From positions 72,011-136,010 of the forward strand of contig CAVZIN010000003.1 of the NCBI GenBank assembly GCA_963775315.1: DNA of 64,000 nucleotides. Reading direction: 5' to 3'. How positions within the stretch are numbered: position 1 is the first letter of the stretch; each line of letters begins with the position of its first letter. A model generated the notes under the pieces. That model was not told the origin of the DNA, ran no database searches, and saw only the letters and a list, made by a program, of their open reading frames with translations. Made by a program: the position numbers and the translations under genes. Source of the DNA: an uncultured Alphaproteobacteria bacterium. GTDB lineage: Bacteria > Pseudomonadota > Alphaproteobacteria > MPNO01 > DASWLB01. Shown in pieces: positions 11,059 through 56,143 of this stretch.

Positions 11059-11349
11059 ATGGCCAGCCACGAGGCGCAGACGACGACCGACCACCAGACG
11101 ATCCGGCGCTGGGCCGAGGCGCGCGGCGGCAAGCCGGCGGCGGTTTCCGCGACGCACAAGGGCGACGACGCGGGCATCCTGCGGATCGATTTCGACGCGC
11201 CGGAGGAAGGGCTCGAGCCCATTTCCTGGGATGCGTTCTTCGAGAAGTTCGAGGAGAGCCGGCTCGCCCTCCTCTATCAGGACAAGACCCAGTCGGGCGA
11301 GACCAGCCGCTTCTTCAAGCTCGTCCGCCGCGACGACGCCAGCCATTAG
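11059..11349 (+). CDS. Small conserved hypothetical protein (~96 aa)
   Basis: ATG at 11059 is preceded by GGGAGAGGA. The composition is not Arg/Ala-biased: 'MASHEAQTTTDHQTIRRWAEARGGKPAAVSATHKGDDAGILRIDFDAPEEGLEPISWDAFFEKFEESRLALLYQDK...'. It converges on the MTase gene, and their stop codons overlap (TTAG). Confidence 0.55.
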   Translation: MASHEAQTTTDHQTIRRWAEARGGKPAAVSATHKGDDAGILRIDFDAPEEGLEPISWDAFFEKFEESRLALLYQDKTQSGETSRFFKLVRRDDASH

Positions 11350-12158
11350 GCCGGCGTTCGCCGCGTCCCGCCCGACCAGGCGCGGCCGGTGGCGGCGGAC
11401 CATTCCTCGACGCGGCCGAACGGGCGCGCGTCAGGATCGGAGGCACAGACATAGATCTCGTGGCCGGGCCGGGCCAGGATGCGAAAGCCGGCGGCGCGCA
11501 GCATCGCCTCGACGGCCGCCTCGTTGGCCGCCCACCACACCGTGGGGTCGCCCGCGAAGTCGCCCTCGACGAAGCTGAGCCGGGGCCAGCCGGGCGCCGC
11601 CATCGCCTGCCGGGTCTGGAACTCCAGCCGGTCAGGCGCCGGCGCGGAAGTTGGTTCGCCCGGCACCGTCAGGGTTTGGAACACCATCAGCCGCGGCGCG
11701 AGGCGCGCCATTGTGTCGAGCGCCAGCATCGGGTACCGCAGATGGTAGGCGACGCCCATGAAGAACACGAGGTCGTAGCGCGTCCGGCTGCGCGCCAGCG
11801 CGTGGATCTGGCGGCGCTGGAACCGAACCCGGCCGGCGAGCCCCATCCGCCGCGCCGCCCAGCGCGCCTGCTTCAGATAGTGGTCGTCGCAGTCGATGCC
11901 GGTGACGCGCGCGCCGCGCCTGGCCAACTCGAAGGCATAGAACCCGGCGTTGCAACCGATCTCCAGCGCGCGCCAGCCGTCGAGGTCGCCGGGCAGGTGC
12001 GGTGCGATCTCGCGCCATTTCCAGGCGGGGAAGTCGCCGAACGGGTGGTCGGGCCGCGTCTCGCGCCCGTCCGGCAAATGCAGGTTCTGGAACCACGGCC
12101 CCAGCGCGGCGATGGCGTCGCGCTCGACGGGATCGGCCCGGCGCTCGGCCACGGTCAC
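11346..12158 (-). CDS. Class I SAM-dependent methyltransferase (last gene of the glycosylation operon)
   Basis: Motif I 'LEIGCNAGFYAFELARRGARVTGIDCD' with downstream MTase fold motifs. GTG start at 12158 overlaps the upstream TGA (GTGA), and a GGAGG SD sits upstream. The track ORF's long N-terminal extension is Arg/Ala junk. Confidence 0.85.
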   Translation of the reverse strand: MTVAERRADPVERDAIAALGPWFQNLHLPDGRETRPDHPFGDFPAWKWREIAPHLPGDLDGWRALEIGCNAGFYAFELARRGARVTGIDCDDHYLKQARWAARRMGLAGRVRFQRRQIHALARSRTRYDLVFFMGVAYHLRYPMLALDTMARLAPRLMVFQTLTVPGEPTSAPAPDRLEFQTRQAMAAPGWPRLSFVEGDFAGDPTVWWAANEAAVEAMLRAAGFRILARPGHEIYVCASDPDARPFGRVEEWSAATGRAWSGGTRRTPA

Positions 12159-13240
12159 GCCTCCGCGGGGCTCGCGGCCCGGCAGGAAAGCAGCAGCGTC
12201 TCGAGCTCCGCGGCGCGGCAGGCGGCGGTGTGCTCGGCCATTACGCGCCGCCGCGCCGAGTTCGCGATGGCGTTGCGCGTCGTGTCGGGCGTGTCGCGCA
12301 GGATCGCCACCGCCTCGTCGGTGTCGCGCGCGATCAAAATGTCGCGCCCGGGCGTGAAGAACTGATCGATCCCGTCCCACCGGTCGCTGACGATCGGCAC
12401 GCCGCACGCGGCCGCCTCGAACAGCCGCACGCTCGGCGACCAGCCGGCTTCGGTCATCGCTTTCCGCGTGATGTTCAGGGTGAAGCGCTGGGCCGAGTAG
12501 AAGGCGCGGTGCGCGCCGGGCGCGACGTGCTCGATCCGCTCGACGTTCGCCGGCCACTGGATGTCGGCCGGGTATTGCGGGCCGCCGACGACGAAGCGCG
12601 CGTCGGCCATCTCGCCCGCCGGGCCGAGCAGCAGCGCGTCGAGACCCGGCTGGCGGTCGTCGCTGTAGGTACCGAGATAGCCGAGCAGCCAGCGGCGATC
12701 GACGCGCTCCGGGTAATGCAGCTCGGGATCGACGGCGCAGTAGAGCGCCGCAGCGCGCCTGGCGCCGAACCTTCGCTCGATGCGGGCGAGCATCGGACCG
12801 CCGGTGAAGGAGAGGTAGAGATCGAAGCGCGGCACCAGCGCGCGAGAGAGATAGGCGCAGTCGCCGGTCTCCAGCGCCGCCACCGTGATCGGCGTGTCGA
12901 TATCGTAGAATGCGGTTGCCCCGCGCGTCGTATCGCACACCCAGCCCGCCACTGCGATCCCGTCCGGCACGTAGGAGCCGACGATCACCGCGGCCGCCTC
13001 GCGCACCAAGGCCGAGAATCGGTCGCGAAGCTCCTCGGTCGAGCCGTAGAGGTGCGTTCGCCCATAGGGCGGGTCGGGCAGGTCGCGGTTCGCTGCGTAC
13101 CATTCGACATCGCGCTCGAGGAACGTCACCTCGTGGCCGCGCCGGACAAGCTCGCGCACCAGCCCGCGATAGGTGGTCGCGTGCCCGTTGCCCCAGGACG
13201 AGGTGATCGAGAGCCCGCAGATGACGATGCCGAGACTCAT
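12155..13240 (-). CDS. CgeB-like glycosyltransferase (DUF3880 / Glyco_trans_1_2 type), paralog C
   Basis: 'MSLGIVICGLSITSSWGNGHATTYRGLVREL...' N-terminal motif and a C-terminal GT-B half ('FEAAACGVPIVSD'). 361 aa. Its ATG overlaps the upstream stop (ATGA). Confidence 0.85.
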   Translation of the reverse strand: MSLGIVICGLSITSSWGNGHATTYRGLVRELVRRGHEVTFLERDVEWYAANRDLPDPPYGRTHLYGSTEELRDRFSALVREAAAVIVGSYVPDGIAVAGWVCDTTRGATAFYDIDTPITVAALETGDCAYLSRALVPRFDLYLSFTGGPMLARIERRFGARRAAALYCAVDPELHYPERVDRRWLLGYLGTYSDDRQPGLDALLLGPAGEMADARFVVGGPQYPADIQWPANVERIEHVAPGAHRAFYSAQRFTLNITRKAMTEAGWSPSVRLFEAAACGVPIVSDRWDGIDQFFTPGRDILIARDTDEAVAILRDTPDTTRNAIANSARRRVMAEHTAACRAAELETLLLSCRAASPAEA

Positions 13241-14322
13241 TCGGCCGCCGATATTTCGGCCTGGCCGTAGAGCAGCGCCTCGACCAGCGCCGCGCGCTGC
13301 GCATAGGTGTGGTGGGCGAGGACGCGGGCGCGGGCCGCGCGGCCGATCTCGGCGGCGGCCTGCATGGTGGTGCGGCCCAGATGCGCGGCGACGTCGGCGC
13401 CGTGGGCGGCGACCAAAATCTCGCGTCCCGGCTCGAGGAACGTCTCGATCCCCTCCCACGCGTCGGAGATCAGGCAGGCGCCGGCGCCCGCCGCCTCGAA
13501 CACGCGCGTCGCGGGCGAGAAGCCGAACCGGGCCATCAACTCGCGGCTGATGTTGAGGACGCAGCGCGCCGAGCAGTTGATGACGTTGTGGTCGCGGGTG
13601 AAGACGTGGCCGATGGCGCGTACGTTGGGTGGCACCTCGGCGCCCGGCCAGCCGTTCCCGCCCAGAAGAATGCGGTCCTCCGGTCGGCGGCGCGCCGCTT
13701 CGAACAGGAACGCGTCGACCCTCGCCTCGCGATCGGGCAGCCTGTTGCCGACGAAGGCGAGGTCGGCGGCGAAGCTTACCGACGGCGGAACCGGATGGTG
13801 CGTTTCTGGATCGACGGCGTTGTAGATCGGCGTGCAGGCGCGCGCGCCGAGCGCCCGATAGGCGCGGCATACCGGCTCGCCGCCGCCATAGGTCAGCACC
13901 CGGTCGAAGCGCGGGATCAACGAGCGCAGCCGGTCGTTCGGATCCGCCGCGATGGATTCCAGCGTCGCCGGCGCATCGACGTCCCAGAAGATGGCGGCCC
14001 GGTGCGGGACGCGTAGCGCGACCACCGCTGCCTCCAGCTCGGCGTCGAGCACGCCGACACCCGATGCCTTCACCACCACGTCCGCCGATGTCGCCTCGTC
14101 GAGCGCGCGTTCCATCCCGTCCGCGGTCGGCGCGTAGACCACGACGCGCGCCCAATCCGGGTCGGGCATGTCGCGATGGGCCTGACGTTCGAACGCGTCG
14201 GGCTCGTAGAACGCGATCTCGTGTCCGCGCGTGGCCAGCGCCTTCAGAAGGCCGCGATAGTAGGTGGCGGCGCCGTTCCAGTAAGCGGAGACGAGGCTCG
14301 ATCCGAAGAACGCAATCCGCAT
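13237..14322 (-). CDS. CgeB-like glycosyltransferase, paralog B
   Basis: 'MRIAFFGSSLVSAYWNGAATYYRGLLKAL...FEAAGAGACLISD'. 361 aa, with an ATGA overlap to the upstream gene. Confidence 0.85.
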   Translation of the reverse strand: MRIAFFGSSLVSAYWNGAATYYRGLLKALATRGHEIAFYEPDAFERQAHRDMPDPDWARVVVYAPTADGMERALDEATSADVVVKASGVGVLDAELEAAVVALRVPHRAAIFWDVDAPATLESIAADPNDRLRSLIPRFDRVLTYGGGEPVCRAYRALGARACTPIYNAVDPETHHPVPPSVSFAADLAFVGNRLPDREARVDAFLFEAARRRPEDRILLGGNGWPGAEVPPNVRAIGHVFTRDHNVINCSARCVLNISRELMARFGFSPATRVFEAAGAGACLISDAWEGIETFLEPGREILVAAHGADVAAHLGRTTMQAAAEIGRAARARVLAHHTYAQRAALVEALLYGQAEISAAE

Positions 14323-15461
14323 CAGACGAGGCTCCCGGCAAGTACGGGCCGTGGTTCCGGCGCGCGCCCCAGCGCATTGAGAATGTCCATCAGCTCGTCC
14401 ACCCGGTGCGCGCACGTATGGCGCGCGCGGATGGTGCGAAGGCCGTTGGCGGCGAGCTGCGCCGCGAGCGCGTCGTCGGACGCGACGGCCTTGAGGTGCG
14501 CGGTCATTTCCGCGCCGTCGCGCGCGCGGAGATAGTCTTCGTGACCGAACAGCCCCTCGGCGTCGTCCCACGGCGCGGACACCAGCGGAATGCCGCAGGC
14601 CAGCGCCTCGAACATGCGGATGGTGGGGATGCCGGGCAGGGCGCGGGCGTAGGGCCGGCGCGGCACGTGCACCGTTACCCGGTGCGCGGCGAAGGCGTCG
14701 GGCACGCGATGGTTGGCGATCCAGCCTTCGTAGCCGATGCCGTGGTGGCGCAGCAGCTCGCGCGCGTGGCGCGGGTACCGCACGCCATGCACGCGTGCGG
14801 GCAGGCCCAGCGCATGCGCCGGCTCGACCAGGAAGGTGCGCAGCTCGCGGCTCCGCTCGCCGTCGCCCCAATTGCCGATCCAAATCAGACCGGCGCGCGC
14901 TTCCGGCTTCGGCGCGCCGGCGGGATCGGGGCGGAACACCGCCGTGTCGGCGGCCTCGTGCCAGGTCCAGGCGCGGCGGCCCCAGCCGCGAGCGCGGTAG
15001 GCCTCCGCCAGCACCGCGCCGAAGGCGAGCACGCCGTCGTAATCCTCGATGCCCATGGCGTCGAGCTCGTCCGGCGCCGTGAGGGCACGGTGGTGGGTGT
15101 CGTGGAACAGCAGGCGGAAGCGGCCGCCCGCGGCGCGTCGCCGCCCGATCGCCCGTGCCAGCGCGGGGTCGGTCCATTCGTGCACGATCACAAGCTCGGC
15201 GCCGTCGAGCGCGGCGTCGAGTTCGAGCGTCTCCGAGTCGTAGAGCCACGGGCGGAGATGGGGAAAGCGCAGCTCGACATCGGCAAGCGCCGCCGGACCC
15301 TGTTCCGCCAGCAGGTGCGTCCGGCTCCACCCGTCCTCCGGCTCGAACACCGCGAGATCGTGGCCGCGCCGCATCAGCTCGCCCGCGATGCCGCGCATGA
15401 AGTGGGCGTTGCCGTGGTTCCAGTCCGAGAGGATGGAATGGCAGAAGAGCGCGATCTTCAC
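14322..15461 (-). CDS. CgeB-like glycosyltransferase, paralog A
   Basis: '(V)KIALFCHSILSDWNHGNAHFMRGIAGEL...FEALACGIPLVSA'. 379 aa, GTG start with a GTGA overlap to the upstream gene. Confidence 0.85.
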   Translation of the reverse strand: MKIALFCHSILSDWNHGNAHFMRGIAGELMRRGHDLAVFEPEDGWSRTHLLAEQGPAALADVELRFPHLRPWLYDSETLELDAALDGAELVIVHEWTDPALARAIGRRRAAGGRFRLLFHDTHHRALTAPDELDAMGIEDYDGVLAFGAVLAEAYRARGWGRRAWTWHEAADTAVFRPDPAGAPKPEARAGLIWIGNWGDGERSRELRTFLVEPAHALGLPARVHGVRYPRHARELLRHHGIGYEGWIANHRVPDAFAAHRVTVHVPRRPYARALPGIPTIRMFEALACGIPLVSAPWDDAEGLFGHEDYLRARDGAEMTAHLKAVASDDALAAQLAANGLRTIRARHTCAHRVDELMDILNALGRAPEPRPVLAGSLV

Positions 15462-16591
15462 AGCGCGGGCTCCAGCCGCCGGGTACGGGCGCGCCCGCCG
15501 GTCAACGCCGCGTACGCGTCGCAATAGAGATCGACCATGCGTGGCGCCGAGAAGCGCCGCGCATGCAGCCGGGCGGCCTCGCCCAGCGCGCGGCAGCCAT
15601 CCTCGTCCGCCATCAGCCCGGAGAGGGCGCGGGCCAGGAGATCGGGCCGGGCTGGATCGACGAACATGGCCGCGCCGTCCCACAGCTCGCGGAGCGTTGG
15701 GATGTCGCCGAGCACCAGCGCCGCGCCCGCCATGGCCGCTTCGAGCACCGCCAGCCCGAACGGCTCGTAGCGCGCGGGGTGTGCGAAGATCGCCGCCTCG
15801 CCGAGCCAGCGCGCAAGTTCAGGCTCCGCGAGCCTCCCGAGCCAGGTGACGCTGTCCGGCGGCACGTCCCCTCCGCCGCCGTCGGGCGCGGCGACGTCGC
15901 CCGCCACCAGCACCGGCCAGGGCAGGTCGCATCCGGCCTCGGCCATTGCGCGGACGTTCTTCGCCTCGTCCCACAGGCGTCCGCAGCCGAACACGCAGCG
16001 CCGCTTCGGCAAGGGCGGGAAGCGCCGCCCGTCGCGCCCGTTCGGGATGACGGCACACCGTCCCGGTGCGCCGTAGATCGCCGCGATCTCGGCGAGGAAC
16101 GCGCGCGTCGGCGCGACCAGCAGCCCGGCGGCGGCAATTCCCTCGGCAACGCGGCTCCGGTAGATGTCCCATTCCGCTGGCGCGTCGCACCCGCGGCAGG
16201 CACGCCACCACGAGGCGACGCAGGAATGGGCCACCGCGACGGTCGGCGCGCGCCAGCCCAGCGCCGCATGAGCGTACCCGTTGAGATGCACCAGGTCGGG
16301 CCGCACGCGCCGCTCGAGCGCGAGCAGCCATTCGCCCTGGCGGAGCACGTCGCATTCGGCGCCCGGCATCCATTCGAGCCGCCCGCCCAGTGTCTCGACC
16401 ACGAGGCGCGGGATCGACTGCGCCTCGGCGCGCTGCGCCGCGCTGGGTGCCGGGCCGAGCGCGCAGAGCGTCACCTCGGTGCCTCGGGCGGCGAGGCCCC
16501 GCGCCAGCTCGATCGCGTAGGTCCAGACGCCGCCGACCGCGTCGGTGGTCATCAGCACGCGCCGCGGCGCATCGGCGACGGACGGCCTCAT
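15458..16591 (-). CDS. Family 4 (GT-B, RfaB-like) glycosyltransferase
   Basis: GT4-type C-terminal domain ('EPFGLAVLEAAMAGAALVLGDIP'). 377 aa, with an ATGA overlap to the upstream gene. Confidence 0.85.
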   Translation of the reverse strand: MRPSVADAPRRVLMTTDAVGGVWTYAIELARGLAARGTEVTLCALGPAPSAAQRAEAQSIPRLVVETLGGRLEWMPGAECDVLRQGEWLLALERRVRPDLVHLNGYAHAALGWRAPTVAVAHSCVASWWRACRGCDAPAEWDIYRSRVAEGIAAAGLLVAPTRAFLAEIAAIYGAPGRCAVIPNGRDGRRFPPLPKRRCVFGCGRLWDEAKNVRAMAEAGCDLPWPVLVAGDVAAPDGGGGDVPPDSVTWLGRLAEPELARWLGEAAIFAHPARYEPFGLAVLEAAMAGAALVLGDIPTLRELWDGAAMFVDPARPDLLARALSGLMADEDGCRALGEAARLHARRFSAPRMVDLYCDAYAALTGGRARTRRLEPAL

Positions 16592-17703
16592 GGCGCAGCG
16601 CGCTCCAAATCGGCGAGCGGCGCCGGCGCCTCGTCCTGAATGTCGCTAAAGGCGCCGAACCGGTCGCGATAGTAGTCGACCGCCCGCTCCCAGGCCCGCG
16701 CGTCGGGCTCGCCCCAGAGCCGCCGGTAGTCGGGCGTGCCGGGATAGGGGAACAGCGGCACCGGGTCGTTGGCCCAGATGCCATGGGCCCGCACCCGCTC
16801 GCGCCAAGCGGCGACCTCGCGCGAATCGTCCTCCGGCGTCAGGATCAGGTTCGCCTGCACGAAGGGCACGTGGCGCTTCGCCTCGATCAGCAGGCCGGTC
16901 AGCGCCTCGGTGTCCACGCGGCAGTCCTTGGACAGCCAGTCACGGCCGGCTTCGGTCAGGCTCTCGACGCCGGCCTCGATCGAGACGCACCCGGCGCGGC
17001 CGAGCAGCGCGATCGTGTCCGGCTTCCAGAGATCGAGCCGCGTCTGCACGCCGAACTTCAGCCCGCGCCCGACCAGCGCCTCCAGCAGCGGCCGGTTCGG
17101 CAAAAAGATTTCGTCGACGAAATAGACGTACTCGACGCCCTGGTTCTGCAGGCGCGCGATCTCGGCGTCGGTCCAGGCGAGCGGCGGCAAATCGACGAAT
17201 TTCGTCGCGCGCGGCCCGCCGCGCCGCCGGATCCGCCCGTCGCGCTTGAAGCAGATGCCTTGCACCTCGGCGTCGCCGCGGGCCAGCTCGGCCAGCGTCT
17301 CCTCGCACTCGCCCATCACCACGATGTCGGCGCCGAGCTTCGCGAGGGCCGGTTCGGGCGTGGTCGAGCCGTGCGGCCCGACGGCGACGGTGAGGCCGGC
17401 GACGTCGCGCACCGCCGCCAGCGTCGCCTGCGGCACGCGCAGCTCGGGCGGTGGGCAGCGCCAGAACAGATAGGTCGGTGCAGTGGTGACGACGGTCATT
17501 TCCGGCCGGAAGGTGGCGAGGCGGCGGGCGAGGGCGGCACCGTCGAGCCCTTCGGCATGGGCGTCGATCAGGGCGACCTCGTGGCCGTCGCGCTGCAGCA
17601 AGGCGCGGGCGCAGCCGAGCTCGAGCGGCAGATGGCGCTCGCGGCAGCCGAAATAGATGCTGCGCGCGAAGGTCCAGTCGGGATTGACCAGCGCGATCCT
17701 CAT
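16588..17703 (-). CDS. B12-binding-like / radical-SAM-like TIM-barrel protein lacking the CxxxCxxC motif
   Basis: N-terminal Rossmann-like B12-binding-type domain ('MRIALVNPDW...IVVMGECEE'), followed by radical-SAM-fold motifs ('YFVDEIF', 'GCVSIEAGVESL', 'LILTPEDD...LFPYPGTPDY'). No Cys triad is present. 371 aa, with an ATGA overlap to the upstream gene. Confidence 0.75.
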   Translation of the reverse strand: MRIALVNPDWTFARSIYFGCRERHLPLELGCARALLQRDGHEVALIDAHAEGLDGAALARRLATFRPEMTVVTTAPTYLFWRCPPPELRVPQATLAAVRDVAGLTVAVGPHGSTTPEPALAKLGADIVVMGECEETLAELARGDAEVQGICFKRDGRIRRRGGPRATKFVDLPPLAWTDAEIARLQNQGVEYVYFVDEIFLPNRPLLEALVGRGLKFGVQTRLDLWKPDTIALLGRAGCVSIEAGVESLTEAGRDWLSKDCRVDTEALTGLLIEAKRHVPFVQANLILTPEDDSREVAAWRERVRAHGIWANDPVPLFPYPGTPDYRRLWGEPDARAWERAVDYYRDRFGAFSDIQDEAPAPLADLERAAP

Positions 17704-19766
17704 GCGACCCGCCCCGTCGGCTCGGGCAGCGCCTCCGGCGTCGGTGCGCCGAGGGGCCCGGGCGCCGTCAGCGGCGCGGTGGCCAGAGGGAAGGCCGGCG
17801 CGCCGGTCAGCCAGGCGTGCAGCTTGGCGACGCCTTCGTGCGCCTTGACGTGCGGCCGCCAGCCCGTGGCCGCGCGGAACCGGCGGGTGTCCGAGGCGTA
17901 CCAGACCTGGTCGCCGGGCCGCCACGCGGCGTAGTCGATGTCCGGCGTGCGGCCGGTCAGCTCGCCGATCCAGCCGACGAGGTCGCGCAGGCTGATCGCG
18001 TTCTCCGGCCCGCCGCCGAGGTTGAATGCGCGTCCGGCGACTGCCTGCGTGTTCTTCAGCGCCAGCAAATAGGCCGCGACCACGTCGTCCGCGTACAGCA
18101 CGTCGCGCACCTGGCAGCCGTCGCCGTAGATGGTGATCGGCCGGCCGGCGAGCGCCGAAATCAGGAAATGCGCGACCCAGCCCTGGTCCTCCGTGCCGAA
18201 CTGGCGCGGGCCGTAGAGGCAGCTCATGCGGAACACGGTGGCGGGCACGCCGAACGTGCGCGCGTAATCCAGGATGTACTGGTCGGCGATGCCCTTGGAG
18301 CAGCCATAGGGCGTGCGCAGATCGAGCGCACGGCCCTCGCCGACGCCGTGGCGGGCGAGGTCCGGGTCGGTCGGCAGGTACCTGTCGCCGCGACGCGCGC
18401 TGGTTTCCGCGTCGAGCAGCGCGCCGTAGACCTTGTTGGTCGAGGCGAACAGGACGGGCGGCGGGCTCGGCCGGTGGCGCAGCGCCTCCAGAAGGTTGAG
18501 CGAGCCGCGCGCGTTCACCTCGAAATCGTCGATCGGCGCGGCGAGGCTCGTCGTCACCGCCACCTGGGCGGCGAGATGGACCACGGCCTTGGCGTCGCGC
18601 GCCGCCGCGCGGAGCGCGTAATAGTCGCGCACGTCGCCGACCTCGACCGCGATCCGCGAGGGGTAGCGCGCGCGCAGCCATTGCAGGTTCTCCTCGACCC
18701 GTGCGCGGGCGAGGCTGTCGAACACCACGACCTGCTCGCCCGTCTCGGCGAGGCGCGCGGCGATGTTGCTGCCGAGGAAACCGGCGCCGCCGGTCACCAG
18801 CACGGCGGGGCGGGCGCGGCGGACGTTCGCCGCCTTCACCTCGCGCGCGAGGCGCTTCGCGCCCGCGAGCCCGCCGGAGGCGAGGGCGCGGTGCACGAGC
18901 TTCGGCTGGCCGTCGGCACGCACGATCCCGGTGTGGTAGTGGCGCTCGTCGAAATGAAAGCCTTCCTGGCTTTCCAGCTCGGGATCGAGGTCCTGGTAGG
19001 AATACCAGTAGACGCGCTCGGCCGGGGCAGCGAGGGCGTCGAGGAACAAGGCGAGCTGGCGCCCTTCCTGGTGGCGCCAGGTGGAGTGGCCCGCCTCTGT
19101 GATCCACACCTCGGGCGTGCAGCCGTGCCGCGCCAGCACCTCGCGCACACTCTCGATCTCGGGCTCCCACCCCTGCCACTGGGCGTTCCAGGTTTCGGGG
19201 AAGCCGTGCACCCCGACCGCGTCGATATGGGCCATGACGCCGCGCCGGCACATCAGCGCCAGCCAGTTCGAATCGGTCGGGCACATGCCGCCCAGCACGG
19301 TGCGCTTGCCCCGCTCCTTCATCCAGTAGGCCGCGCTGCCGACCATCTCGGAGAAGGCACGCCACTCGGCGTCGAGGTGCCAGTTCCAGTCGTTGAGGTT
19401 GTTCGGTTCGTTCCAGAGCTCGACCCAGTCGAAATGACGGCCGTGGCGGCTGACGAACACGTCGAGGAAATCCGCGTAGGACTTCGGGTCGCGCGGCGGC
19501 GCGGTCGTGGTGCCGTCGAGGCTGAGAGACGGCGGGGTGTAGTGGAAGCAGGGCAGTACCTCGAGCGTGCGCGCCAGCTCGGGCAGCAGCCAGCCATACC
19601 ACGCTTCGCCGTCCGGCCGGTGCCAGTCGGCCCACGACACGCCGATGCGCACATGCCGCGCGCCGATGGCGGAAAGCCCGTCGATCATCCTTAAGGCGCG
19701 CTCTCTCTCGCCCGGCCGCAGCCATTCGACGACACCCCATGGGCGCTCGATGCGGGACCGCGCCAT
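17700..19766 (-). CDS. Fusion protein: clan GH-A glycoside-hydrolase TIM barrel (GH5/GH39-like) + NAD-dependent sugar epimerase/dehydratase
   Basis: N-terminal half carries 'VELWNEPNN' (acid/base NEP) and 'VWITEAGHS' (nucleophile TE). C-terminal half carries 'VLVTGGAGFLGSNIAARL', 'YGCSKGIADQY' (YxxxK) and 'YGDGCQVRDVLYADDV'. ATG at 19766 ('MARSRIERPW'). Confidence 0.85.
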   Translation of the reverse strand: MARSRIERPWGVVEWLRPGERERALRMIDGLSAIGARHVRIGVSWADWHRPDGEAWYGWLLPELARTLEVLPCFHYTPPSLSLDGTTTAPPRDPKSYADFLDVFVSRHGRHFDWVELWNEPNNLNDWNWHLDAEWRAFSEMVGSAAYWMKERGKRTVLGGMCPTDSNWLALMCRRGVMAHIDAVGVHGFPETWNAQWQGWEPEIESVREVLARHGCTPEVWITEAGHSTWRHQEGRQLALFLDALAAPAERVYWYSYQDLDPELESQEGFHFDERHYHTGIVRADGQPKLVHRALASGGLAGAKRLAREVKAANVRRARPAVLVTGGAGFLGSNIAARLAETGEQVVVFDSLARARVEENLQWLRARYPSRIAVEVGDVRDYYALRAAARDAKAVVHLAAQVAVTTSLAAPIDDFEVNARGSLNLLEALRHRPSPPPVLFASTNKVYGALLDAETSARRGDRYLPTDPDLARHGVGEGRALDLRTPYGCSKGIADQYILDYARTFGVPATVFRMSCLYGPRQFGTEDQGWVAHFLISALAGRPITIYGDGCQVRDVLYADDVVAAYLLALKNTQAVAGRAFNLGGGPENAISLRDLVGWIGELTGRTPDIDYAAWRPGDQVWYASDTRRFRAATGWRPHVKAHEGVAKLHAWLTGAPAFPLATAPLTAPGPLGAPTPEALPEPTGRVA

Positions 19767-20884
19767 CACGCGACCAGCCCCCGGCTGACCAGCTCCTCCG
19801 TCGCACTGTCGACGCGGTCGGTCGCGATCTGGTCGGCCAGCCATTCGACGAGGTCGGCGAGCCCGGCTTCGAGCGAGACGCGCGGGCGGTAGCCGAGCGC
19901 CTCGGCGGAAACGCTCACGTCGGCGAAGTTGTGGCGGATGTCGCCCGCGCGATAGCGCCCGGCGATCTCCGGCGCGATGTGCGGCTTGCCCATCAGCGCC
20001 GCCATCCGCCTGGCGATGGTGGCGATGGAATGGTCCTCGCCGCTACCGATGTTGAACGAGACGCCGCTCACCTCCGTCGCCTCCAGCGCCAGCCGGAAGG
20101 CGCGCCCCACGTCGCGCGCGTGGACGAAGTCGCGCCGCTGCTCGCCGTCCTCGAAGATCAGCGGCGCGCGCCCGTTCAGCAGGCGCGAGGCGAAGATGGC
20201 GAGCACGCCGGTATAGGGGTTGGAAAGTGCCTGGTTCCGCCCGTACACGTTGTAGAGGCGGAGCGCGACCGTGCCCATGCCGTAGGCTTGGCCGACCACG
20301 TGGCACATCTTCTCCTGCACGTACTTGCCGAGCGCGTAGACCGAGGCGAGGTCGGGCCGCTTGGTCTCCGGCGTCGGGATCGGAACGAGCGGCCGGCCTT
20401 GATCGTCGCGGAGCTCCCATTCGCCGCGATTGAGCTGTGCGGCACCGCGCGGGGCCGGCTCGTGGGGATTGCCGTCGGCGTCGCGGCAGAGCCCCTCGCC
20501 GTAGATGCTCATCGACGAGGCGATAACCATGCGCTCGACCGGCTGGCGCGCGATCTCCTGAAGAAGAATCGCAGTGCCGAGGTCGTTGACGGCGGTGTAG
20601 TCCGCAATCTGGTACATGCTCTGGCCGACGCCGACGCGCGCGGCAAGATGGATGACGGCGTCGGCGCGGGCGAGCGCGCGGGCGACGGCCTCGGCGTCGC
20701 GCACGTCGCCCGGGATCAGCTCCGCCTCGCGCGCCAGGTAGTCCGGCCGCGCCCGCGTCTCGCCGTGAATTTGTGGAAGAAGTGAGTCGAGTATGACGAC
20801 CTCGTGCCCGGCCGCCAGCCGCTCGTCAGTGATGTGTGTTCCGATGAAACCAGCGCCCCCCGTCACAAGCACTCGCTTCGGCAT
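19766..20884 (-). CDS. NAD-dependent epimerase/dehydratase (extended SDR), first gene of the operon
   Basis: 'MPKRVLVTGGAGFIGTHI', YxxxK 'YALGKY'. ATG at 20884 is preceded by GGGGAGAG. The track start (TTG at 20899) is less likely. Confidence 0.85.
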   Translation of the reverse strand: MPKRVLVTGGAGFIGTHITDERLAAGHEVVILDSLLPQIHGETRARPDYLAREAELIPGDVRDAEAVARALARADAVIHLAARVGVGQSMYQIADYTAVNDLGTAILLQEIARQPVERMVIASSMSIYGEGLCRDADGNPHEPAPRGAAQLNRGEWELRDDQGRPLVPIPTPETKRPDLASVYALGKYVQEKMCHVVGQAYGMGTVALRLYNVYGRNQALSNPYTGVLAIFASRLLNGRAPLIFEDGEQRRDFVHARDVGRAFRLALEATEVSGVSFNIGSGEDHSIATIARRMAALMGKPHIAPEIAGRYRAGDIRHNFADVSVSAEALGYRPRVSLEAGLADLVEWLADQIATDRVDSATEELVSRGLVA

Positions 20885-20977
20885 TCTCTCCCCTTCCAAA
20901 ACGCGTTGGGTACAAGTTCACGGTGAACGTAAGAATGTTGCATTCGTTCCGGCCGCGCGGAACGGGCGGAGCGGATG

Positions 20978-21913: not shown

Positions 21914-22062
21914 GACTAGCCTACGCCGGCAGGGCCGGCCGGTTCCGGTTTCCGCGACGCGCGCGTTCAGGCGGCCCGCGCCGCCGGCGATTCACCGCGA
22001 ACGCATTTCCGGCCGAACGATCCGGTGCCCGCCTCGTTGACCGAAGGTAACGAAACGAGCGC

Positions 22063-23290
22063 ATGTCCGAACTCAATCTCGTTCTCGCCGTGCTCGGCGG
22101 GGTGACGCTGGTCCTCAGCCTCAGCGTCGACTACGTGCGCGGCCGGCTGCTGCCGCTGTCGGAGCCGCTGCTCGCCACCCTGGCCGGCGTCGCCGCCGGG
22201 CCGGTCGGGCTCGGCTGGATCGCGCTCGACCACTGGGGTCGCCGCGCACGCTGCTCGAGGAGGTGGCGCGGGTCATCGTGGCGCTCGCCGTGATGGGCGC
22301 GGCGCTTCGCCTACCGCCCGCCTATTTCCGCCGCCAGTGGCGGGCGATGGCGGTCGCGCTCGGTCCGGTGATGATGGTCGGCGCCGTGGTGGCCGGCATC
22401 GCCGGCTGGAAGATCCTCGGCGTGCCGTTCTGGCAGGGGGCGCTGATCGGCGCGATCCTCACCCCGACCGACCCGGTGGTGGCTGGTGCGATCGTCGCCG
22501 GCCCGCTCGCCGGGGAAACGTTGCCGACGCGCCTCCGGCGCCTGATCTCGGGCGAGTCGGGCGCCAACGACGGCATCGCCTACCCCATCGTGTTCCTGCC
22601 CGTGCTCATGCTGGTGCATCCGGCGAACGAGGCGCTCGGGCTCTGGGTCGGCGACCGGGTGGTGTGGGCGACGCTTGGTGGGGCGGCGCTCGGCGCGGCG
22701 GCGGGCTACGTCGCGGGGCGGGCGCAGATCCTCGCCGAATCGCACGGCTTCGCCTCCGGCCACGCGCTGGTGACCGGCGTCACCGCGTTCGGGCTCGCGC
22801 TGCTCGGGCTGCTCGGGCTCGCCGGCGCCGACGGAGTGCTCGGCGTGTTCGTCGCGGGGCGCCTGTTCGGCCACGTGGTCGAGACCGAACGGGTGACAGA
22901 GCAGGGCGAGCTGCAGGAGATCATCCGCTGGCTGTTCACCATCCCGAATTTCGTGCTGTTCGGCGCCGCGCTGCCCTGGGCGGGCTGGCACGCGCTCGGT
23001 TGGCCTGGGGTTGGCCTCGCCGTCGCGGTGCTGCTGCTCCGCCGCGTCCCGGTGATCCTGGCTGCGCGGCGCAGCCTGCCGCTCGACCGACCGGCCGACC
23101 TCCTGTTCTACGCCTGGTTCGGTCCGCTCGGCGTCGCCTCGATCTTCTACGCGACGCTCGCGACACGGCTCACCGGGCTCGACGTGGTGTGGCAGGCGTC
23201 GAGCCTCGTCGTCGCGCTCTCGATCCTGGTGCATGGCGCGACGGCGACGCCGTTCCTCCAGCTCTACGCCCGCAAGGTTCCCCGCGAACT
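22063..23290 (+). pseudogene. CPA1 (NhaP-type) Na+/H+ antiporter, frameshifted
   Basis: The N-terminus ('MSELNLVLAVLGG...GWIALDHWG') lies in frame 1, and the remainder ('PRTLLEEVARVIVALAVMGAALRL...') lies in frame 3 from ~22239. This is an apparent 1-nt deletion in the GGGG run at 22235-22238. There is no stop codon before the topoisomerase ORF. Confidence 0.6.
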
Positions 23291-23363
23291 CCGGAACGGA
23301 GGAAGGCGCCGGCCGTTGAGAGCCTGCGGATCATCGAGTGTCTGGCGTGGTGCGAGTGGTGGC

Positions 23364-24695
23364 ATGACGGTGGCGCGGGCGAGAGGCGGATTGCGGCAGG
23401 TTGGGCCCGAGGCGCTTGTGTTGCGGCGCCGCCGCGCCGGGCGCGGGTTCGTCTATCTCGACGAGAAGGGCCGCCAGGTGCGCGACCGCGCGACCCTCGC
23501 CCGCATCCGGAGCCTCGCCGTGCCGCCCGCCTACGAGGACGTGCAGATCGCGCGCGACGCCGACGCCCACCTGCAGGCCGTCGGGCGCGACGCGGCGGGG
23601 CGCGTCCAGTACCGCTATCACCCCGCCTGGACCGAGGAGCGCGAGGCGCGCAAGGTCGAGCGGCTGGGCGCGCTTGCCGCTGCCCTGCCGCACCTCCGCC
23701 GCAGCGTCGCCCGCGACCTCGCACGGCCCGAGCTGTGCCGTCGCCGGGTCCTCGCCGCCGTGATCTCGCTGATCGACAAGACCCACGTCCGCATCGGGTG
23801 CGAGGACTACGTCCATACCGGGCGGAGCCGCGGCGCGGCGACGCTCCTCAAGCGCAACGTGCGGGTCGCTGGCGACCGGGTAGCACTCGACTTCCGCGGC
23901 AAGGGCGGGCGGGCGATCGAGTGCGCGGTGCGCGCGCCGGCGCTCGCCCGCACGGTCCGCGCGCTCAAGCGCCAGCCGGGACCGCGCCTGTTCCGCTTTC
24001 GCGGCGAGGACGGCAGGCTGCACAACCTGACCGCCGCCGACGCCAACGCCTATCTGCAAGAGGTGACGGGCGAGGGGGTGACGGCGAAGGACTTCCGCAC
24101 GCTCGCGGCGACCGCGACGGCGGCCGAGCGGCTCGGCGCGCTCGAGCCGGGCCCCAGCGCCACCGCGCGGCGGCGCCAGATCAACGGCGTGATGCGCGAG
24201 ATCGCCGAGATGCTGGCCAACACCCCCGCCGTCACGCGTAAGAGCTACGTCCACCGCCGGCTGGTCGACGCTTTCGAGCGGGGCACGCTTGCCTCGCTCG
24301 TTGCCGGCTGCGACCGGCCGCGCGGCCTCGCCTGTGGCGAGGCGGTGGTCGCCGCCCTGTTCTCGCCGACGGGCGGGACTGACCGCCCCGGAACCCGTTC
24401 CTGCCGCGCACGTTGGTGGGGCGATCCGGGTTGCTGGAAGGGAACGAGCCATGCCCGCGAAGTCGAAGAAGCAGCAGATGGCCGCGGGAGCGGCGCTCTC
24501 GGCCAAGCGCGGCGAGCGCAAGAAGTCGAGCCTCCGCGGCGCCTCCGAAGGGATGGTCGAATCGATGAGCGAGAAGGAGCTCGAGCGCATGGCGAGCACC
24601 AAGCGCAAGGGAAAGCCGACGACCGCGAACAAGACGTCGAGCGCGAAGTCGACGTCCTCGAAGAAGAAATAGCCGGCCTCAGATCTCCTTCATGA
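23364..24695 (+). CDS. DNA topoisomerase IB (poxvirus/eukaryote-like TopIB)
   Basis: 'GFVYLDEKGRQVRD...IRSLAVPPAY...LQAVGRDAAGRVQYRYH...TAKDFRTLAAT...NTPAVTRKSYVHRRL' includes the catalytic Tyr context SYVH. Its ATG is at 23364. The homologous part should end near ~24390, but the frame has no stop until 24695, so the 3' end is uncertain. Confidence 0.6.
   Translation: MTVARARGGLRQVGPEALVLRRRRAGRGFVYLDEKGRQVRDRATLARIRSLAVPPAYEDVQIARDADAHLQAVGRDAAGRVQYRYHPAWTEEREARKVERLGALAAALPHLRRSVARDLARPELCRRRVLAAVISLIDKTHVRIGCEDYVHTGRSRGAATLLKRNVRVAGDRVALDFRGKGGRAIECAVRAPALARTVRALKRQPGPRLFRFRGEDGRLHNLTAADANAYLQEVTGEGVTAKDFRTLAATATAAERLGALEPGPSATARRRQINGVMREIAEMLANTPAVTRKSYVHRRLVDAFERGTLASLVAGCDRPRGLACGEAVVAALFSPTGGTDRPGTRSCRARWWGDPGCWKGTSHAREVEEAADGRGSGALGQARRAQEVEPPRRLRRDGRIDEREGARAHGEHQAQGKADDREQDVEREVDVLEEEIAGLRSPS
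24451..24672 (+). CDS. DUF3008-family small basic protein
   Basis: 'MPAKSKKQQMAAGAALSAKRGE...SEKELERMASTKRKG' matches the characteristic DUF3008 start. GGAAGGGAA lies upstream. Confidence 0.8.
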   Translation: MPAKSKKQQMAAGAALSAKRGERKKSSLRGASEGMVESMSEKELERMASTKRKGKPTTANKTSSAKSTSSKKK

Positions 24696-49849: not shown

Positions 49850-50006
49850 ACTGGCGTATACGCCACCGGCACCGCCGCGCCCCATCCGTGATACTGTTGC
49901 CGAATTCGAAACAATTCCCATTGGCCCCGCTTCGGCGGAGGCGTAGGATCGGGCGAGGCCCAGCCATAAGGGCCAGGAGGTCGAGGCGTTCAGGGAGGCC
50001 GGCCGG

Positions 50007-50519
50007 ATGGGCCGCGTCGCAGCCGCTTATCTGCACCTCATCAACCTGCTGAAGACGCTGTCCGGCGTCATCATCTTCTGCGTCTTCCTGCTTATCGTAT
50101 CGGACGTGCTGATCCGGCTCGTGGGCCTCAACCCCTGGATCTATTCGACCGTGCTGGTCGAGTACGGGCTCCTCTGGTTCACCATGCTGGCCGCGCCCTG
50201 GCTCGCGCGTACCAAGGGCCATGTTTTCATCGACGCGATCACCCAACTCCTGCCGCCCGGCGTGCAGCGCGTGATCGCCAAGTTCGCCTATCTCGTCTGC
50301 ACGGCGACGTCGCTGTGCTTCGCCTACTACTCGGGACGACTGCTGATCAGCGCGATTGTCGGGCACGAGTTCGACACGCGCGCCGTCGACATGCCGATGT
50401 GGACGCTGCTCGCACCGCTGCCGCCCTGCTTCCTGATGGTGGCGATCGAGTACCTGCGATTCCTGGTCGGCATCGACTCGATGTACTCGTCCCGCACCGA
50501 GGTGAGGGACAGCGTGTAG
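50007..50519 (+). CDS. dctQ: TRAP transporter small permease
   Basis: Four-TM DctQ-like protein directly upstream of the large permease. Confidence 0.85.
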   Translation: MGRVAAAYLHLINLLKTLSGVIIFCVFLLIVSDVLIRLVGLNPWIYSTVLVEYGLLWFTMLAAPWLARTKGHVFIDAITQLLPPGVQRVIAKFAYLVCTATSLCFAYYSGRLLISAIVGHEFDTRAVDMPMWTLLAPLPPCFLMVAIEYLRFLVGIDSMYSSRTEVRDSV

Positions 50520-50521
50520 CG

Positions 50522-51838
50522 ATGGAATGGTACTGGGCCTTCGCGCTGCTGCTCGGGATGATCGTCGCGCTGCTCGGGCTCGGCCTGCCGGTCGCGCTCG
50601 CCTTCCTCGCCACCAACATCCTCGGCTGGCTCTACTTCAACGGCTGGAACCCGGAGGCGGTGATCCAGGTGGCCGACAACTCGACCATCCTGATCTCGCG
50701 CTTCACGCTCGGCCCGGTGCCGATGTTCATCATGATGGGCTCGCTGTTCTTCCACACCGGGCTGGCGGTGAGGGTGTTCGACGGGCTCGAGGTGCTGTTC
50801 GGCCGGCTGCCGGGGCGGCTCTGCTACCTGACCGTCGCGGGCGGCGCGCTGTTCGCGACGCTGACCGGCTCGTCGATGGCGAACACGGCGATGCTCGGCT
50901 CGCTGATGGTGCCGGAGATGCAGCGCCGCGGCTACAACTGGCGCATGTCGATGGGGCCGGTGCTGGGCTCGGGCGGGCTCGCCATGATCATCCCGCCGTC
51001 GGCGCTCGGCGTGCTGCTCGCCGCGGTTGCCGGCATCGACGTCGGCCAGCTTCTGGTGGCCGGCTTCGTGCCGGGCTTCGTGCTGGCCGGCCTGTTCGCG
51101 CTGCTGATCCGGCTACAGCTCTGGCTCGATCCGTCGGGCGCGCCGGAATACGACGTCGAGCGGACGACGCTCGCCACCAAGGCGCGGCTCTTCGCGGTGA
51201 ACATCCTGCCCATGGGCGTGGTGGTGTTCATGGTGGTCGGCTTCATCGTGCTCGGCTGGTCGACGCCGACCGAGGCCGCCGCGCTCGGCGTGCTCGGCGT
51301 GATGATTCTCGCCGCGCTGTTCCGCAAGCTCACCTTCAAGGCGATCGGCGTCTCGGTCGAGGGGACGGTGCGCGTCGCCGCGATGGTGTTCTTCATCCTG
51401 ATGAACTCGACCGTGTTCTCGCAGCTCCTCGCCTTCTCGGGCGCGTCGTCGGGCATGCTGGAATGGGTCGGCGGGTTCGACGTGTCGCGCTACTGGGTGC
51501 TCGCCGCGATGTTCGGCGTGCTGATCCTCCTCGGCATGTTCATGGACGGCGTGTCGATGATGCTGATCGCCGTGCCGATCTTCTTCCCGCTGGCCAAGCA
51601 TCTCGGCTTCGACCTGATCTGGTTCGGGCTGTTCGTGCTGCTGACGATCGAGATGGGCGGGACGACGCCGCCCTTCGGCCTGCTGCTCTACGTCATGCTG
51701 GGGATCGCGCCGCCGGGAACGACGCTGTTCCGCGTCGCGGGGGCGGCGCTGCCGTTCCTCGCCTGCGATGTGGTGCTGATCCTGCTGCTGGTCGCCTTCC
51801 CGGGGCTCGCGCTTTACCTGCCGCGCCTGATGTTGTGA
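50522..51838 (+). CDS. dctM: TRAP transporter large permease
   Basis: 'MEWYWAFALLLGMIVALLGLGLP...' DctM 12-TM layout. ATG lies 2 nt after the dctQ stop. The track ORF's upstream extension is out-of-frame junk. Confidence 0.9.
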   Translation: MEWYWAFALLLGMIVALLGLGLPVALAFLATNILGWLYFNGWNPEAVIQVADNSTILISRFTLGPVPMFIMMGSLFFHTGLAVRVFDGLEVLFGRLPGRLCYLTVAGGALFATLTGSSMANTAMLGSLMVPEMQRRGYNWRMSMGPVLGSGGLAMIIPPSALGVLLAAVAGIDVGQLLVAGFVPGFVLAGLFALLIRLQLWLDPSGAPEYDVERTTLATKARLFAVNILPMGVVVFMVVGFIVLGWSTPTEAAALGVLGVMILAALFRKLTFKAIGVSVEGTVRVAAMVFFILMNSTVFSQLLAFSGASSGMLEWVGGFDVSRYWVLAAMFGVLILLGMFMDGVSMMLIAVPIFFPLAKHLGFDLIWFGLFVLLTIEMGGTTPPFGLLLYVMLGIAPPGTTLFRVAGAALPFLACDVVLILLLVAFPGLALYLPRLML

Positions 51839-51847
51839 GGCGCGGGC

Positions 51848-56005: not shown

Positions 56006-56143
56006 ACATCGGGGGCTTTCCCCCTCGCGTTCCGCAATCTCTCCCCTTCCGCCGGCCCGTCCGGGTCGCACCGCTCCGCGCGGGTCGCGGCGCCGCCCCC
56101 TGGCGCCGCCTGCGTCCCGCCTCCGCCGTATCCGCGTCCCTAA

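What the first reader, a model, noticed from the sequence alone, without database searches (positions are those of the whole stretch)
16588..17703. Radical-SAM-fold protein with a B12-binding-like domain but no CxxxCxxC cluster motif
The protein has the N-terminal Rossmann-like (B12-binding-type) domain and the downstream TIM-barrel landmarks of class B radical SAM enzymes ('YFVDEIF', 'SIEAGVESL', 'LFPYPGTPDY'). Its seven cysteines (YFGC, ELGC, WRCPP, GECEE, ICFKR, AGCVS, DCRV) never form a CxxxCxxC triad. This could be a degenerate, non-radical paralog acting as a scaffold or substrate-binding partner of the adjacent GTs, or an enzyme with a non-canonical cluster site.
Basis: seen in the sequence. 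Interest (0 to 1): 0.6.

Follow-up and report, generated by a model that had tools for sequence, protein, structure and literature searches.

The report
Radical SAM gene with deleted cluster site
This gene is an ordinary member of a known but uncharacterised radical SAM enzyme family. A private 165-base in-frame deletion between two short direct repeats has removed its iron-sulfur cluster site, so it is most likely a recently inactivated allele and not a new kind of protein.

Summary
Window 16588-17703 (- strand) encodes a 371-aa protein with a B12-binding-type N-terminal domain, radical SAM barrel remnants, seven cysteines and no CxxxCxxC.

The cause is simple. The protein is a clear member of NCBIfam TIGR04295 ('rhizo-twelve system' B12-binding/radical SAM protein), scoring 551 bits against a cut-off of 400. 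It lacks exactly 55 residues that the other members keep. The missing piece holds the His-rich RHxHHHHRFD stretch, strand beta-1, the CP[YF]xC[ST]FC cluster loop and most of helix alpha-1.

- All 119 other top database hits are 424-473 aa and carry the triad; so do 160 of the 161 related loci fetched.
- In the nearest relative (83% identical) the missing 165 bp is bounded by two in-frame GAGATCGCG copies exactly 165 nt apart. This is the signature of a slippage or microhomology deletion.
- Outside the gap the protein shows no decay: 1 deviation at 137 highly conserved columns, and dN/dS 0.29, like its neighbours.
- The surrounding glycan-synthesis cassette is intact.

It is therefore a recent loss-of-function allele, or less likely a sequencing or assembly artefact. 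It is not an evolved non-radical paralog and has no alternative cluster site. A few rare, diverged triad-less relatives exist elsewhere, so a residual non-catalytic role cannot be excluded. Interest is low.

The parts
16588..17703 (-). TIGR04295-family B12-binding-domain/radical SAM gene carrying a 165-bp (55-codon) in-frame deletion; 371 aa against 424-434 aa in nearly all relatives
17152..17163 (-). Deletion junction: the single remaining copy of the direct repeat GAGATCGCG(CGC), encoding E181-I182-A183-R184. By alignment the break lies between 17152 and 17151, but it could be anywhere within the repeat.
   Evidence: in L001 the two GAGATCGCG copies start at 10541 and 10706, exactly 165 nt apart, and both read E-I-A in frame
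17281..17628 (-). Rossmann-like B12-binding-type domain (residues 26-141), intact
   Evidence: PF02310, 34.8 bits; AF2 model pLDDT about 90 over most of this region
16834..17166 (-). Remnant of the radical SAM partial TIM barrel (residues 180-290; Pfam profile positions 35-152 only). Strand beta-1, the cluster loop and helix alpha-1 are missing.
19766..20899 (-). Cassette gene: NAD-dependent sugar epimerase/dehydratase (377 aa)
17700..19844 (-). Cassette gene: 714-aa ORF, an unassigned N-terminal ~345 aa plus an NAD-dependent epimerase/dehydratase (residues 348-680). Its stop overlaps the radical SAM start (ATGA).
15458..16591 (-). Cassette gene: GT4-family glycosyltransferase (377 aa). Its ATG overlaps the radical SAM stop (ATGA).
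14322..15461 (-). Cassette gene: Glyco_trans_1_2 (CgeB-like) glycosyltransferase. The GTG start at 15461 is inferred from alignment of the N-terminus VKIALFCHS with relatives.
13237..14322 (-). Cassette gene: second Glyco_trans_1_2 glycosyltransferase (ATG at 14322 overlaps the upstream TGA)
11346..13304 (-). Cassette gene: a third, CgeB-like N-terminal part fused to a TIGR04290-type SAM methyltransferase (residues 396-620)
   Evidence: (299.2 bits against cut-off 300)

Best explanation
The gene is the normal, syntenic ortholog of the TIGR04295 class-B-type radical SAM enzyme. That enzyme sits in a conserved glycan-biosynthesis cassette: two sugar epimerase/dehydratases, the radical SAM gene, a GT4 and two CgeB-like glycosyltransferases, plus a SAM methyltransferase.

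In this genome a single recent deletion of 165 bp occurred between two short direct repeats. These are GAGATCGCG in the nearest relative, probably GAGATCGCGCGC in the ancestor, and they lie 165 nt apart. The likely route is replication slippage or another microhomology-mediated, RecA-independent event. Both repeat copies encode Glu-Ile-Ala in the same frame, so the deletion is automatically in frame and no selection is needed to explain the open frame.

The lost 55 residues comprise the His-rich stretch, strand beta-1, the CP[YF]xC[ST]FC loop that ligates the [4Fe-4S] cluster, and most of helix alpha-1. The product therefore cannot bind the cluster, cannot cleave SAM reductively, and is inactive as a radical enzyme. 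It is a young loss-of-function allele.

Shown: the deletion, its boundaries and repeats, its uniqueness, the lack of other decay, and the intact neighbours. Inferred: the slippage mechanism, loss of activity, and that the event happened in the cell and not during library preparation or assembly.
For: - Family membership: TIGR04295 551 bits against cut-off 400, matched in two stretches.
- The gap: alignment with nine relatives shows one clean 55-column gap between R184 and L185 covering HxHHHHRFD...SRGCPYxCxFCAKENFRDxYRRR...EI.
- Uniqueness: 119 of 119 other top hits are 424-473 aa and contain CP[YF]xC[ST]FC. Of the 161 related loci fetched (L001, 80 from GTDB species representatives, 80 from metagenome contigs), 160 keep the triad.
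- Repeats: DNA alignment with the closest relative (83% aa identity) shows exactly 165 bp missing. The two GAGATCGCG copies in the relative are exactly 165 nt apart and both in frame.
- No relocation: the missing segment and any second gene copy are absent from the rest of the window.
- No decay: 1 deviation at 137 columns that are >=95% conserved, shared with P0002, against a family mean of 0.9. dN/dS against L001 is 0.29, against 0.20-0.38 for the six neighbouring cassette genes.
- Structure: the AF2 model of the full-length relative (pLDDT 89, pTM 0.91) places the deleted residues 185-239 on the His loop, beta-1 (200-203), the cluster loop and helix 230-242. The window protein's model drops to pLDDT 60-68 around the junction.
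- Cassette: the neighbouring genes in the window are single intact ORFs, each colinear with L001 apart from frame shifts on the L001 side.
Against: - The allele is seen once only: a 1-member cluster on 1 contig. The junction was not found in the metagenome contig collection. Its reality in the organism is therefore unconfirmed.
- The repeat in the relative is 9 nt exact. The 12-nt version is inferred from the window's CGC codon, not observed.
- The complete lack of decay is equally compatible with an artefact, or with continued selection on the shortened protein.
- Loss of activity is inferred from the general requirement of radical SAM enzymes for the three-Cys cluster site. It was not measured.
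Confidence: 0.72

Rival explanations
1. The deletion is not in the organism. It arose during library preparation (amplification chimera or template switching at the repeat), or it is a minority structural variant or assembly error fixed in the consensus of a metagenome-assembled contig. The real gene would then be a normal full-length TIGR04295 enzyme.
For: The allele occurs in one contig only, with no second occurrence of the junction. The rest of the protein shows zero extra divergence. The nearest relative L001 comes from an uncultured MAG whose cassette genes are split across frames, which shows that error-prone assemblies exist in this lineage.
Against: A 9-12-nt repeat is far below assembler k-mer or overlap sizes, so an algorithmic mis-join at this point is not expected. 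That is an argument from general knowledge of assemblers, not a test. All other cassette genes in the window are intact single ORFs without large indels relative to L001. Microhomology-bounded deletions of this size are a well-known class of spontaneous mutation.
Confidence: 0.15
2. The shortened protein is retained because the family has a second, cluster-independent role, for example as a structural or substrate-binding partner of the adjacent glycosyltransferases. On this view loss of the radical site is tolerated or even advantageous.
For: - The frame is open, the conserved residues are intact and dN/dS is unremarkable.
- The gene's start and stop overlap its neighbours (ATGA), so translational coupling is possible.
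- A second, independent in-frame deletion removing Cys2 and Cys3 of the triad exists in metagenome contig L114.
- Rare, diverged triad-less relatives of 343-378 aa exist (P0125, P0144, P0168, P0170). One of them, P0144, overlaps a CgeB-like glycosyltransferase gene by 4 nt in a Planctomycetota MAG, and three assemblies give the identical sequence.
Against: - The in-frame outcome follows automatically from the in-frame repeats, so it says nothing about selection.
- The window deletion also removes a core barrel strand and helix, unlike the 5-16-aa loop excisions in the diverged relatives.
- All triad-less forms are 1-member clusters with no populated lineage. The three P0144 contigs are 100% identical in DNA and probably come from one sample.
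- In ~70-75% GC DNA an ORF can stay open for a long time without selection.
- The loci screens list only the 80 best-scoring matches per scan, and the 120 proteins listed are likewise the best-scoring hits. This disfavours frameshifted or truncated copies, so in-frame deletions are not demonstrably over-represented.
Confidence: 0.1
3. The protein is still a radical enzyme and assembles its cluster from other cysteines at a non-canonical site.
For: Five Cys are invariant across the family outside the triad and are retained here (positions 20, 83, 133, 239, 261).
Against: These Cys coexist with the canonical triad in every intact member, so they are not a substitute for it. The whole beta1-loop-alpha1 unit that positions the cluster over the barrel is missing. 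No relative shows such an arrangement.
Confidence: 0.02

Closest known systems
NCBIfam TIGR04295 (B12_rSAM_oligo; 'B12-binding domain/radical SAM domain protein of rhizo-twelve system')
   Same: Full-length sequence similarity (551 bits; 63-83% identity to the nine relatives aligned). Same domain order, same invariant residues outside the gap, and the same conserved neighbourhood: epimerase - epimerase - radical SAM - GT4 - two Glyco_trans_1_2 genes on one strand in 45 of 45 genome loci with full flanks.
   Different: It lacks the 55 residues that carry the His-rich stretch, beta-1, the Cys triad and alpha-1, which every other member examined retains, except L114, which has lost 11 residues. 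The family itself has no experimentally known function, and no paper in the searchable library mentions TIGR04295 or TIGR04290.
Class B (cobalamin-type) radical SAM enzymes with solved structures: TsrM (6wte), AprD4 (6fd2), OxsB (5ul4), MgmA (9ccb), TokK (7kdx)
   Same: The AF2 model of the full-length relative P0002 superposes on these with Foldseek E 1e-13 to 3e-21 and query-normalised TM 0.63-0.73: an N-terminal Rossmann-like domain followed by a radical SAM partial barrel. By sequence, AprD4 is the best solved hit (E 3e-06).
   Different: Only 15-19% identity. Substrate, reaction and actual cobalamin use are unknown for TIGR04295. AprD4, to my knowledge, does not use cobalamin, so the domain alone does not prove B12 dependence. 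The window protein additionally lacks the cluster site that all of these possess.
Spontaneous deletions between short direct repeats (replication slippage / microhomology-mediated deletion)
   Same: One repeat copy plus the intervening sequence is lost, and the deletion length equals the repeat spacing in the undeleted relative (165 nt).
   Different: Nothing unusual. The only particular point is that both repeats encode the same tripeptide in the same frame, so the product stays in frame.

Membership tests
NCBIfam TIGR04295 | Whole-protein HMM score at or above the curated cut-off (400 bits) | tested here: met
   551.2 bits, E 1.3e-165, matched in two stretches; the gap between them is shown by the alignment
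NCBIfam TIGR04295 | N-terminal B12-binding-type Rossmann domain | tested here: met
   PF02310 34.8 bits against cut-off 32.1, residues 26-141
NCBIfam TIGR04295 | Radical SAM core with the CP[YF]xC[ST]FC triad, preceded by RHxHHHHRFD | tested here: not met
   Both lie in the 55-residue gap. PF04055 scores only 18 bits (cut-off 29.5), covering profile positions 35-152.
NCBIfam TIGR04295 | Location in the conserved glycan cassette (epimerases, GT4, Glyco_trans_1_2 genes, TIGR04290 methyltransferase) | tested here: met
   Same gene order and strand as in 45 of 45 genome loci. The TIGR04290 match scores 299.2 bits, marginally below its cut-off of 300, and is fused to a GT-like N-terminal part.
Radical SAM superfamily (as an active enzyme) | Three-Cys site ligating the [4Fe-4S] cluster that binds and cleaves SAM | tested here: not met
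   No CxxxCxxC anywhere in the protein. The loop and its supporting beta-1 and alpha-1 are deleted.
Radical SAM superfamily (as an active enzyme) | Partial (beta/alpha)6 TIM barrel | tested here: inconclusive
   Five of the six beta/alpha units are present by alignment and in the AF2 model. Whether the barrel folds without beta-1 and alpha-1 cannot be judged from a model driven by the alignment.
Class B cobalamin-dependent radical SAM enzymes | Binding and use of cobalamin | not testable with these tools
   Only the domain fold is shown.
Evolved non-radical (cluster-less) paralog lineage | Loss of the triad shared by a populated clade of relatives, with signs of long-term maintenance | tested here: not met
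   The window allele is a singleton whose closest relatives all keep the triad. The diverged triad-less proteins found elsewhere are unrelated to this deletion, and each is a 1-member cluster.

The most novel reading that the evidence does not exclude
TIGR04295 proteins may have a second, cluster-independent job as a partner of the cassette's CgeB-like glycosyltransferases. Loss of the oxygen-sensitive radical site with retention of the protein would then be a recurrent, tolerated or adaptive event. The window allele, the independent 33-bp deletion in L114, and the rare diverged triad-less forms would be three snapshots of it; one of the last (P0144) overlaps a glycosyltransferase gene by 4 nt in a Planctomycetota MAG.
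Probability: 0.1. Interest if true: 0.5.

Novelty: new member of a known kind. Interest (0 to 1): 0.15.

Why it matters
The finding matters mainly for annotation. A homology-based pipeline would name this gene a TIGR04295 radical SAM protein, because it passes the family cut-off, although it cannot be an active radical enzyme. The glycan product of this cassette in this organism is therefore probably unmodified at the radical SAM step, or not made at all. The finding does not reveal a new class of cluster-less radical SAM-fold proteins.

Two things are of wider interest. The first is the family itself: a widespread glycan cassette, conserved in Alphaproteobacteria and also present in loci labelled Sorangium, Acidobacteriota and Gemmatimonas, with a class-B-type radical SAM enzyme of unknown reaction. 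The second is the handful of diverged triad-less relatives noticed in passing.

Tried and rejected
- **Second copy or relocated segment.** I looked for a second intact copy, or the missing segment moved elsewhere in the window, with tblastn and blastn. Only chance GC-rich matches appeared.
- **Junction in other assemblies.** An exact search for the 30-nt junction in metagenome contigs gave 0 hits. An exact look-up of the protein found no encoding contig on record, and its cluster has one member without an accession. The source organism and independent occurrences therefore could not be established. The window's genome is not among the GTDB species representatives.
- **Closer relatives.** I looked for relatives closer than 83% in the genome and metagenome collections and found none. 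The next best, Benzoatithermus flavus, is 67% identical in the alignment.
- **Relaxed selection.** Counts at conserved columns and pairwise dN/dS showed no signal. The pairwise test has little power for a recent event. A first dN/dS run was contaminated by paralogous HSPs and was redone with orthologous HSPs only.
- **Is L114 decaying?** Its 10 deviations at conserved columns are shared with its intact relatives L142 and L071, so it is not.
- **Populated triad-less lineage.** I searched with a profile of the four diverged triad-less proteins. Only three of the four query proteins themselves were recovered, followed by canonical 407-447-aa members.
- **Literature.** Searches for TIGR04295, rhizo-twelve, TIGR04290 and B12_rSAM_oligo found nothing relevant. 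TIGR04348, which I wrongly recalled as part of this cassette, is the selenoneine glycosyltransferase SenB.
- **Alternative Fe-S site.** This could not be examined geometrically, because model coordinates are not exposed by the tools.
- **Promoter and terminator scan** of the cassette: uninformative.
Full report
**Observation**

The finding's coordinates are correct. Window 16588-17703 on the minus strand is an ORF of 371 codons beginning MRIALVNPDWTF.
It has no CxxxCxxC.
- Pfam finds a B12-binding domain above threshold (34.8 bits against 32.1, residues 26-141).
- Pfam finds only a sub-threshold Radical_SAM match (18 bits against 29.5). That match starts at profile position 35, so the part of the profile that holds the Cys triad has no counterpart.
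- NCBIfam places the protein firmly in TIGR04295, the 'B12-binding domain/radical SAM protein of the rhizo-twelve system'. The score is 551 bits against a cut-off of 400, in two stretches, one of them residues 181-367 against profile positions 236-422.

**What is missing**

A search of 5.8 billion proteins returned 6172 relatives. Of the 120 best, all are 424-473 aa except the window's own protein, which is a one-member cluster on one contig of 188,523 bp.

Alignment with nine relatives shows one clean gap of 55 columns between R184 and L185 of the window protein. The gap spans the consensus HxHHHHRFDAEPxGPGAEVEASRGCPYxCTFCAKENFRDxYRRRxxxxVLAEIxx.
- All 119 other listed proteins contain CP[YF]xC[ST]FC and a run of at least three His.
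- I fetched 161 related loci: L001, 80 from GTDB species representatives and 80 from metagenome contigs. Of these, 160 keep the triad, and their matches span about 1230-1290 nt against 1113 nt here.
- The full-length closest relative P0002 (83% identical) matches Pfam Radical_SAM over profile positions 2-158 at 47 bits.

**How it was lost**

DNA alignment with the P0002 locus (L001, an uncultured alphaproteobacterial MAG) shows exactly 165 bp absent from the window.

In L001 the absent segment is bounded by two copies of GAGATCGCG, starting at 10541 and 10706. They are exactly 165 nt apart, and both are read as Glu-Ile-Ala in the gene's frame. The window retains one copy, GAGATCGCGCGC, at 17163-17152 on the minus strand, followed directly by CTGCAG. 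The CGC after the repeat suggests that in the window's ancestor the downstream copy read EIAR like the upstream one, which would give a 12-nt repeat. That step is inference.

Loss of one repeat copy plus the intervening DNA is the classical footprint of replication slippage or microhomology-mediated deletion. Because the repeats are in the same frame, the product is necessarily in frame. The open reading frame is therefore not evidence for selection. The missing segment is not found elsewhere in the window, and there is no second gene copy.

**What the loss means structurally**

An AlphaFold2 model of full-length P0002 is confident (pLDDT 89, pTM 0.91). It shows a Rossmann-like domain followed by a partial beta/alpha barrel. 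The deleted residues 185-239 cover the His-rich loop, strand 200-203 (beta-1), the cluster loop and most of helix 230-242.

The model resembles solved class B radical SAM enzymes with query-normalised TM 0.63-0.73: TsrM, AprD4, OxsB, MgmA and TokK. AprD4 is the best solved match by sequence.

The model of the window protein has pLDDT 83 overall but only 60-68 around the junction. Without the three cysteines the [4Fe-4S] cluster that binds and cleaves SAM cannot be held. This follows from established knowledge of the superfamily and was not measured here. However, the five family-invariant cysteines that remain also occur in every cluster-bearing member, so they are not a replacement for the triad.

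**Age of the event**

Outside the gap the protein is as conserved as any member. It deviates at 1 of 137 columns that are at least 95% conserved, a change it shares with P0002. The family mean is 0.9 and the maximum 4.

Pairwise dN/dS against L001 is 0.29, within the 0.20-0.38 range of the six neighbouring cassette genes.

The deletion is therefore very recent, or it is not present in the organism at all. I could not find the junction in the metagenome contig collection, nor any other contig encoding this protein. An artefact of library preparation or of consensus-calling in a mixed population thus remains possible. Against an algorithmic assembly error: the repeat is far shorter than assembler word sizes, and all neighbouring genes are intact and colinear with the relative.

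**Context**

The gene sits in an intact cassette on the minus strand:
- epimerase/dehydratase, 19766-20899;
- a 714-aa ORF with an unassigned N-terminal part and a second epimerase/dehydratase, 17700-19844;
- the radical SAM gene;
- a GT4 glycosyltransferase, 15458-16591;
- two Glyco_trans_1_2 (CgeB-like) glycosyltransferases, 14322-15461 and 13237-14322;
- a third CgeB-like part fused to a TIGR04290-type methyltransferase, 11346-13304.

The start and stop of the radical SAM gene overlap its neighbours by ATGA. The core order epimerase-epimerase-radical SAM-GT4-GT-GT is found on one strand in 45 of 45 genome loci with full flanks.

The cassette's product is unknown, and no paper in the searchable library mentions the family. 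From its composition I infer a modified oligosaccharide or glycoconjugate. The radical SAM enzyme probably performs a methylation, deoxygenation or similar radical step on a sugar. That is inference by analogy with TokK, TsrM and AprD4.

**A side observation that tempers the verdict**

Scanning 1.84 billion representatives at 50% identity produced many aberrant singletons of this family. Most are obviously frameshifted translations. Four proteins of 343-378 aa (P0125, P0144, P0168, P0170) share a different pattern:
- The Cys loop is gone. In P0144, P0168 and P0170 a 14-16-aa gap leaves SRG followed almost directly by the RxRP of the RRRP stretch. In P0125 a 5-aa gap plus substitutions removes the cysteines.
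- There is a second gap of 7-17 aa further along the barrel.
- The C-terminal region is degenerate or missing.

They are 41-50% identical to each other and to canonical members, and each is a one-member cluster. P0144 comes from a Planctomycetota MAG, and three assemblies give the identical sequence. There it overlaps by 4 nt a CgeB-like glycosyltransferase homologous to the window's, with no other cassette genes nearby.

In addition, metagenome contig L114 carries an independent 33-bp in-frame deletion of PYHCTFCAKDNF, with no extra decay relative to its intact relatives.

These cases show that cluster-less derivatives of this family arise repeatedly. They do not show that such derivatives are maintained. 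High-GC DNA keeps ORFs open by chance. The screens also favoured high-scoring copies, which disfavours frameshifted or truncated ones. I therefore give the 'retained non-catalytic partner' reading about 10%.

**Verdict**

- The protein is indeed unable to act as a radical SAM enzyme.
- It is not an evolved paralog and not a non-canonical cluster enzyme.
- It is a canonical TIGR04295 ortholog with a private, repeat-mediated, in-frame 165-bp deletion. Most likely it is a young loss-of-function allele (about 0.7), with an artefact as the main alternative (about 0.15).

This is a new, damaged member of a known and functionally uncharacterised family. Interest is low.

Noticed in passing
P0125, P0144, P0168, P0170 (library proteins); loci L162-L164 (gene at L162:751-1782, glycosyltransferase at L162:1779-2819): These are rare, diverged TIGR04295-like proteins of 343-378 aa that lack the Cys triad. 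Three have a 14-16-aa gap over the cluster loop, and P0125 has a 5-aa gap plus substitutions. All have a second barrel gap and a degenerate or missing C-terminus. Each is a singleton cluster. P0144 (Planctomycetota MAG GCA_035263005.1) overlaps a CgeB-like glycosyltransferase gene by 4 nt, with no other cassette genes nearby. They could be cassette relics or a rare non-radical lineage.
   Followed up: partly
L114:1089-2327 (metagenome contig Ga0075421_100047412), deletion near L114:1725: An independent 33-bp in-frame deletion removes PYHCTFCAKDNF, which includes Cys2 and Cys3 of the triad, in an otherwise normal family member. Its closest relatives L142 and L071 are intact. Only about 2 nt of microhomology lies at the boundaries.
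   Followed up: partly
Family-wide; window protein positions 20, 83, 133, 239, 261, and the deleted region (P0002 residues 184-192): The TIGR04295 family has an invariant His-rich motif RHxHHHHRFD about 15 residues before the Cys triad. It also has five invariant Cys outside the triad, three of them at strand ends of the Rossmann-like domain. This may indicate an extra metal or auxiliary-cluster site, as in MiaB/RimO, instead of or in addition to cobalamin.
   Followed up: no
window 17700-19844 (-): A single 714-aa ORF joins an unassigned ~345-aa N-terminal region, which has no Pfam or NCBIfam hit, to an NAD-dependent epimerase/dehydratase. In the closest relative L001 the two parts are called as separate genes overlapping in different frames.
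   Followed up: partly
window 11346-13304 (-): The TIGR04290-type methyltransferase is fused to a CgeB-like N-terminal part. In L001 this part carries a Glyco_trans_1_2 Pfam hit. The fusion is seen only in the window and its closest relative (L001 and L002, which are the same contig). In the 14 other loci where the methyltransferase was found, it lies about 5.4 kb away on the opposite side of the radical SAM gene. The ORF's start overlaps the upstream gene by 68 nt, so the true start may be further downstream.
   Followed up: partly
L001:11278-14630: In the closest relative (MAG MFD01721.bin.2.6) the GT4 and both Glyco_trans_1_2 genes are split across two or three frames. This is probably indel error in a long-read assembly, and it shows that the window's assembly is cleaner than that of its nearest neighbour.
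   Followed up: no
window 55865-56018 (+): A TPP riboswitch (Rfam RF00059, 57.1 bits against gathering score 54.3) lies just upstream of an ORF starting near 56144.
   Followed up: no
window 50001-52000 and 22001-24000: Both 2-kb windows show strongly negative AT skew (-0.31 and -0.20) compared with the rest of the sequence. The cause was not examined.
   Followed up: no
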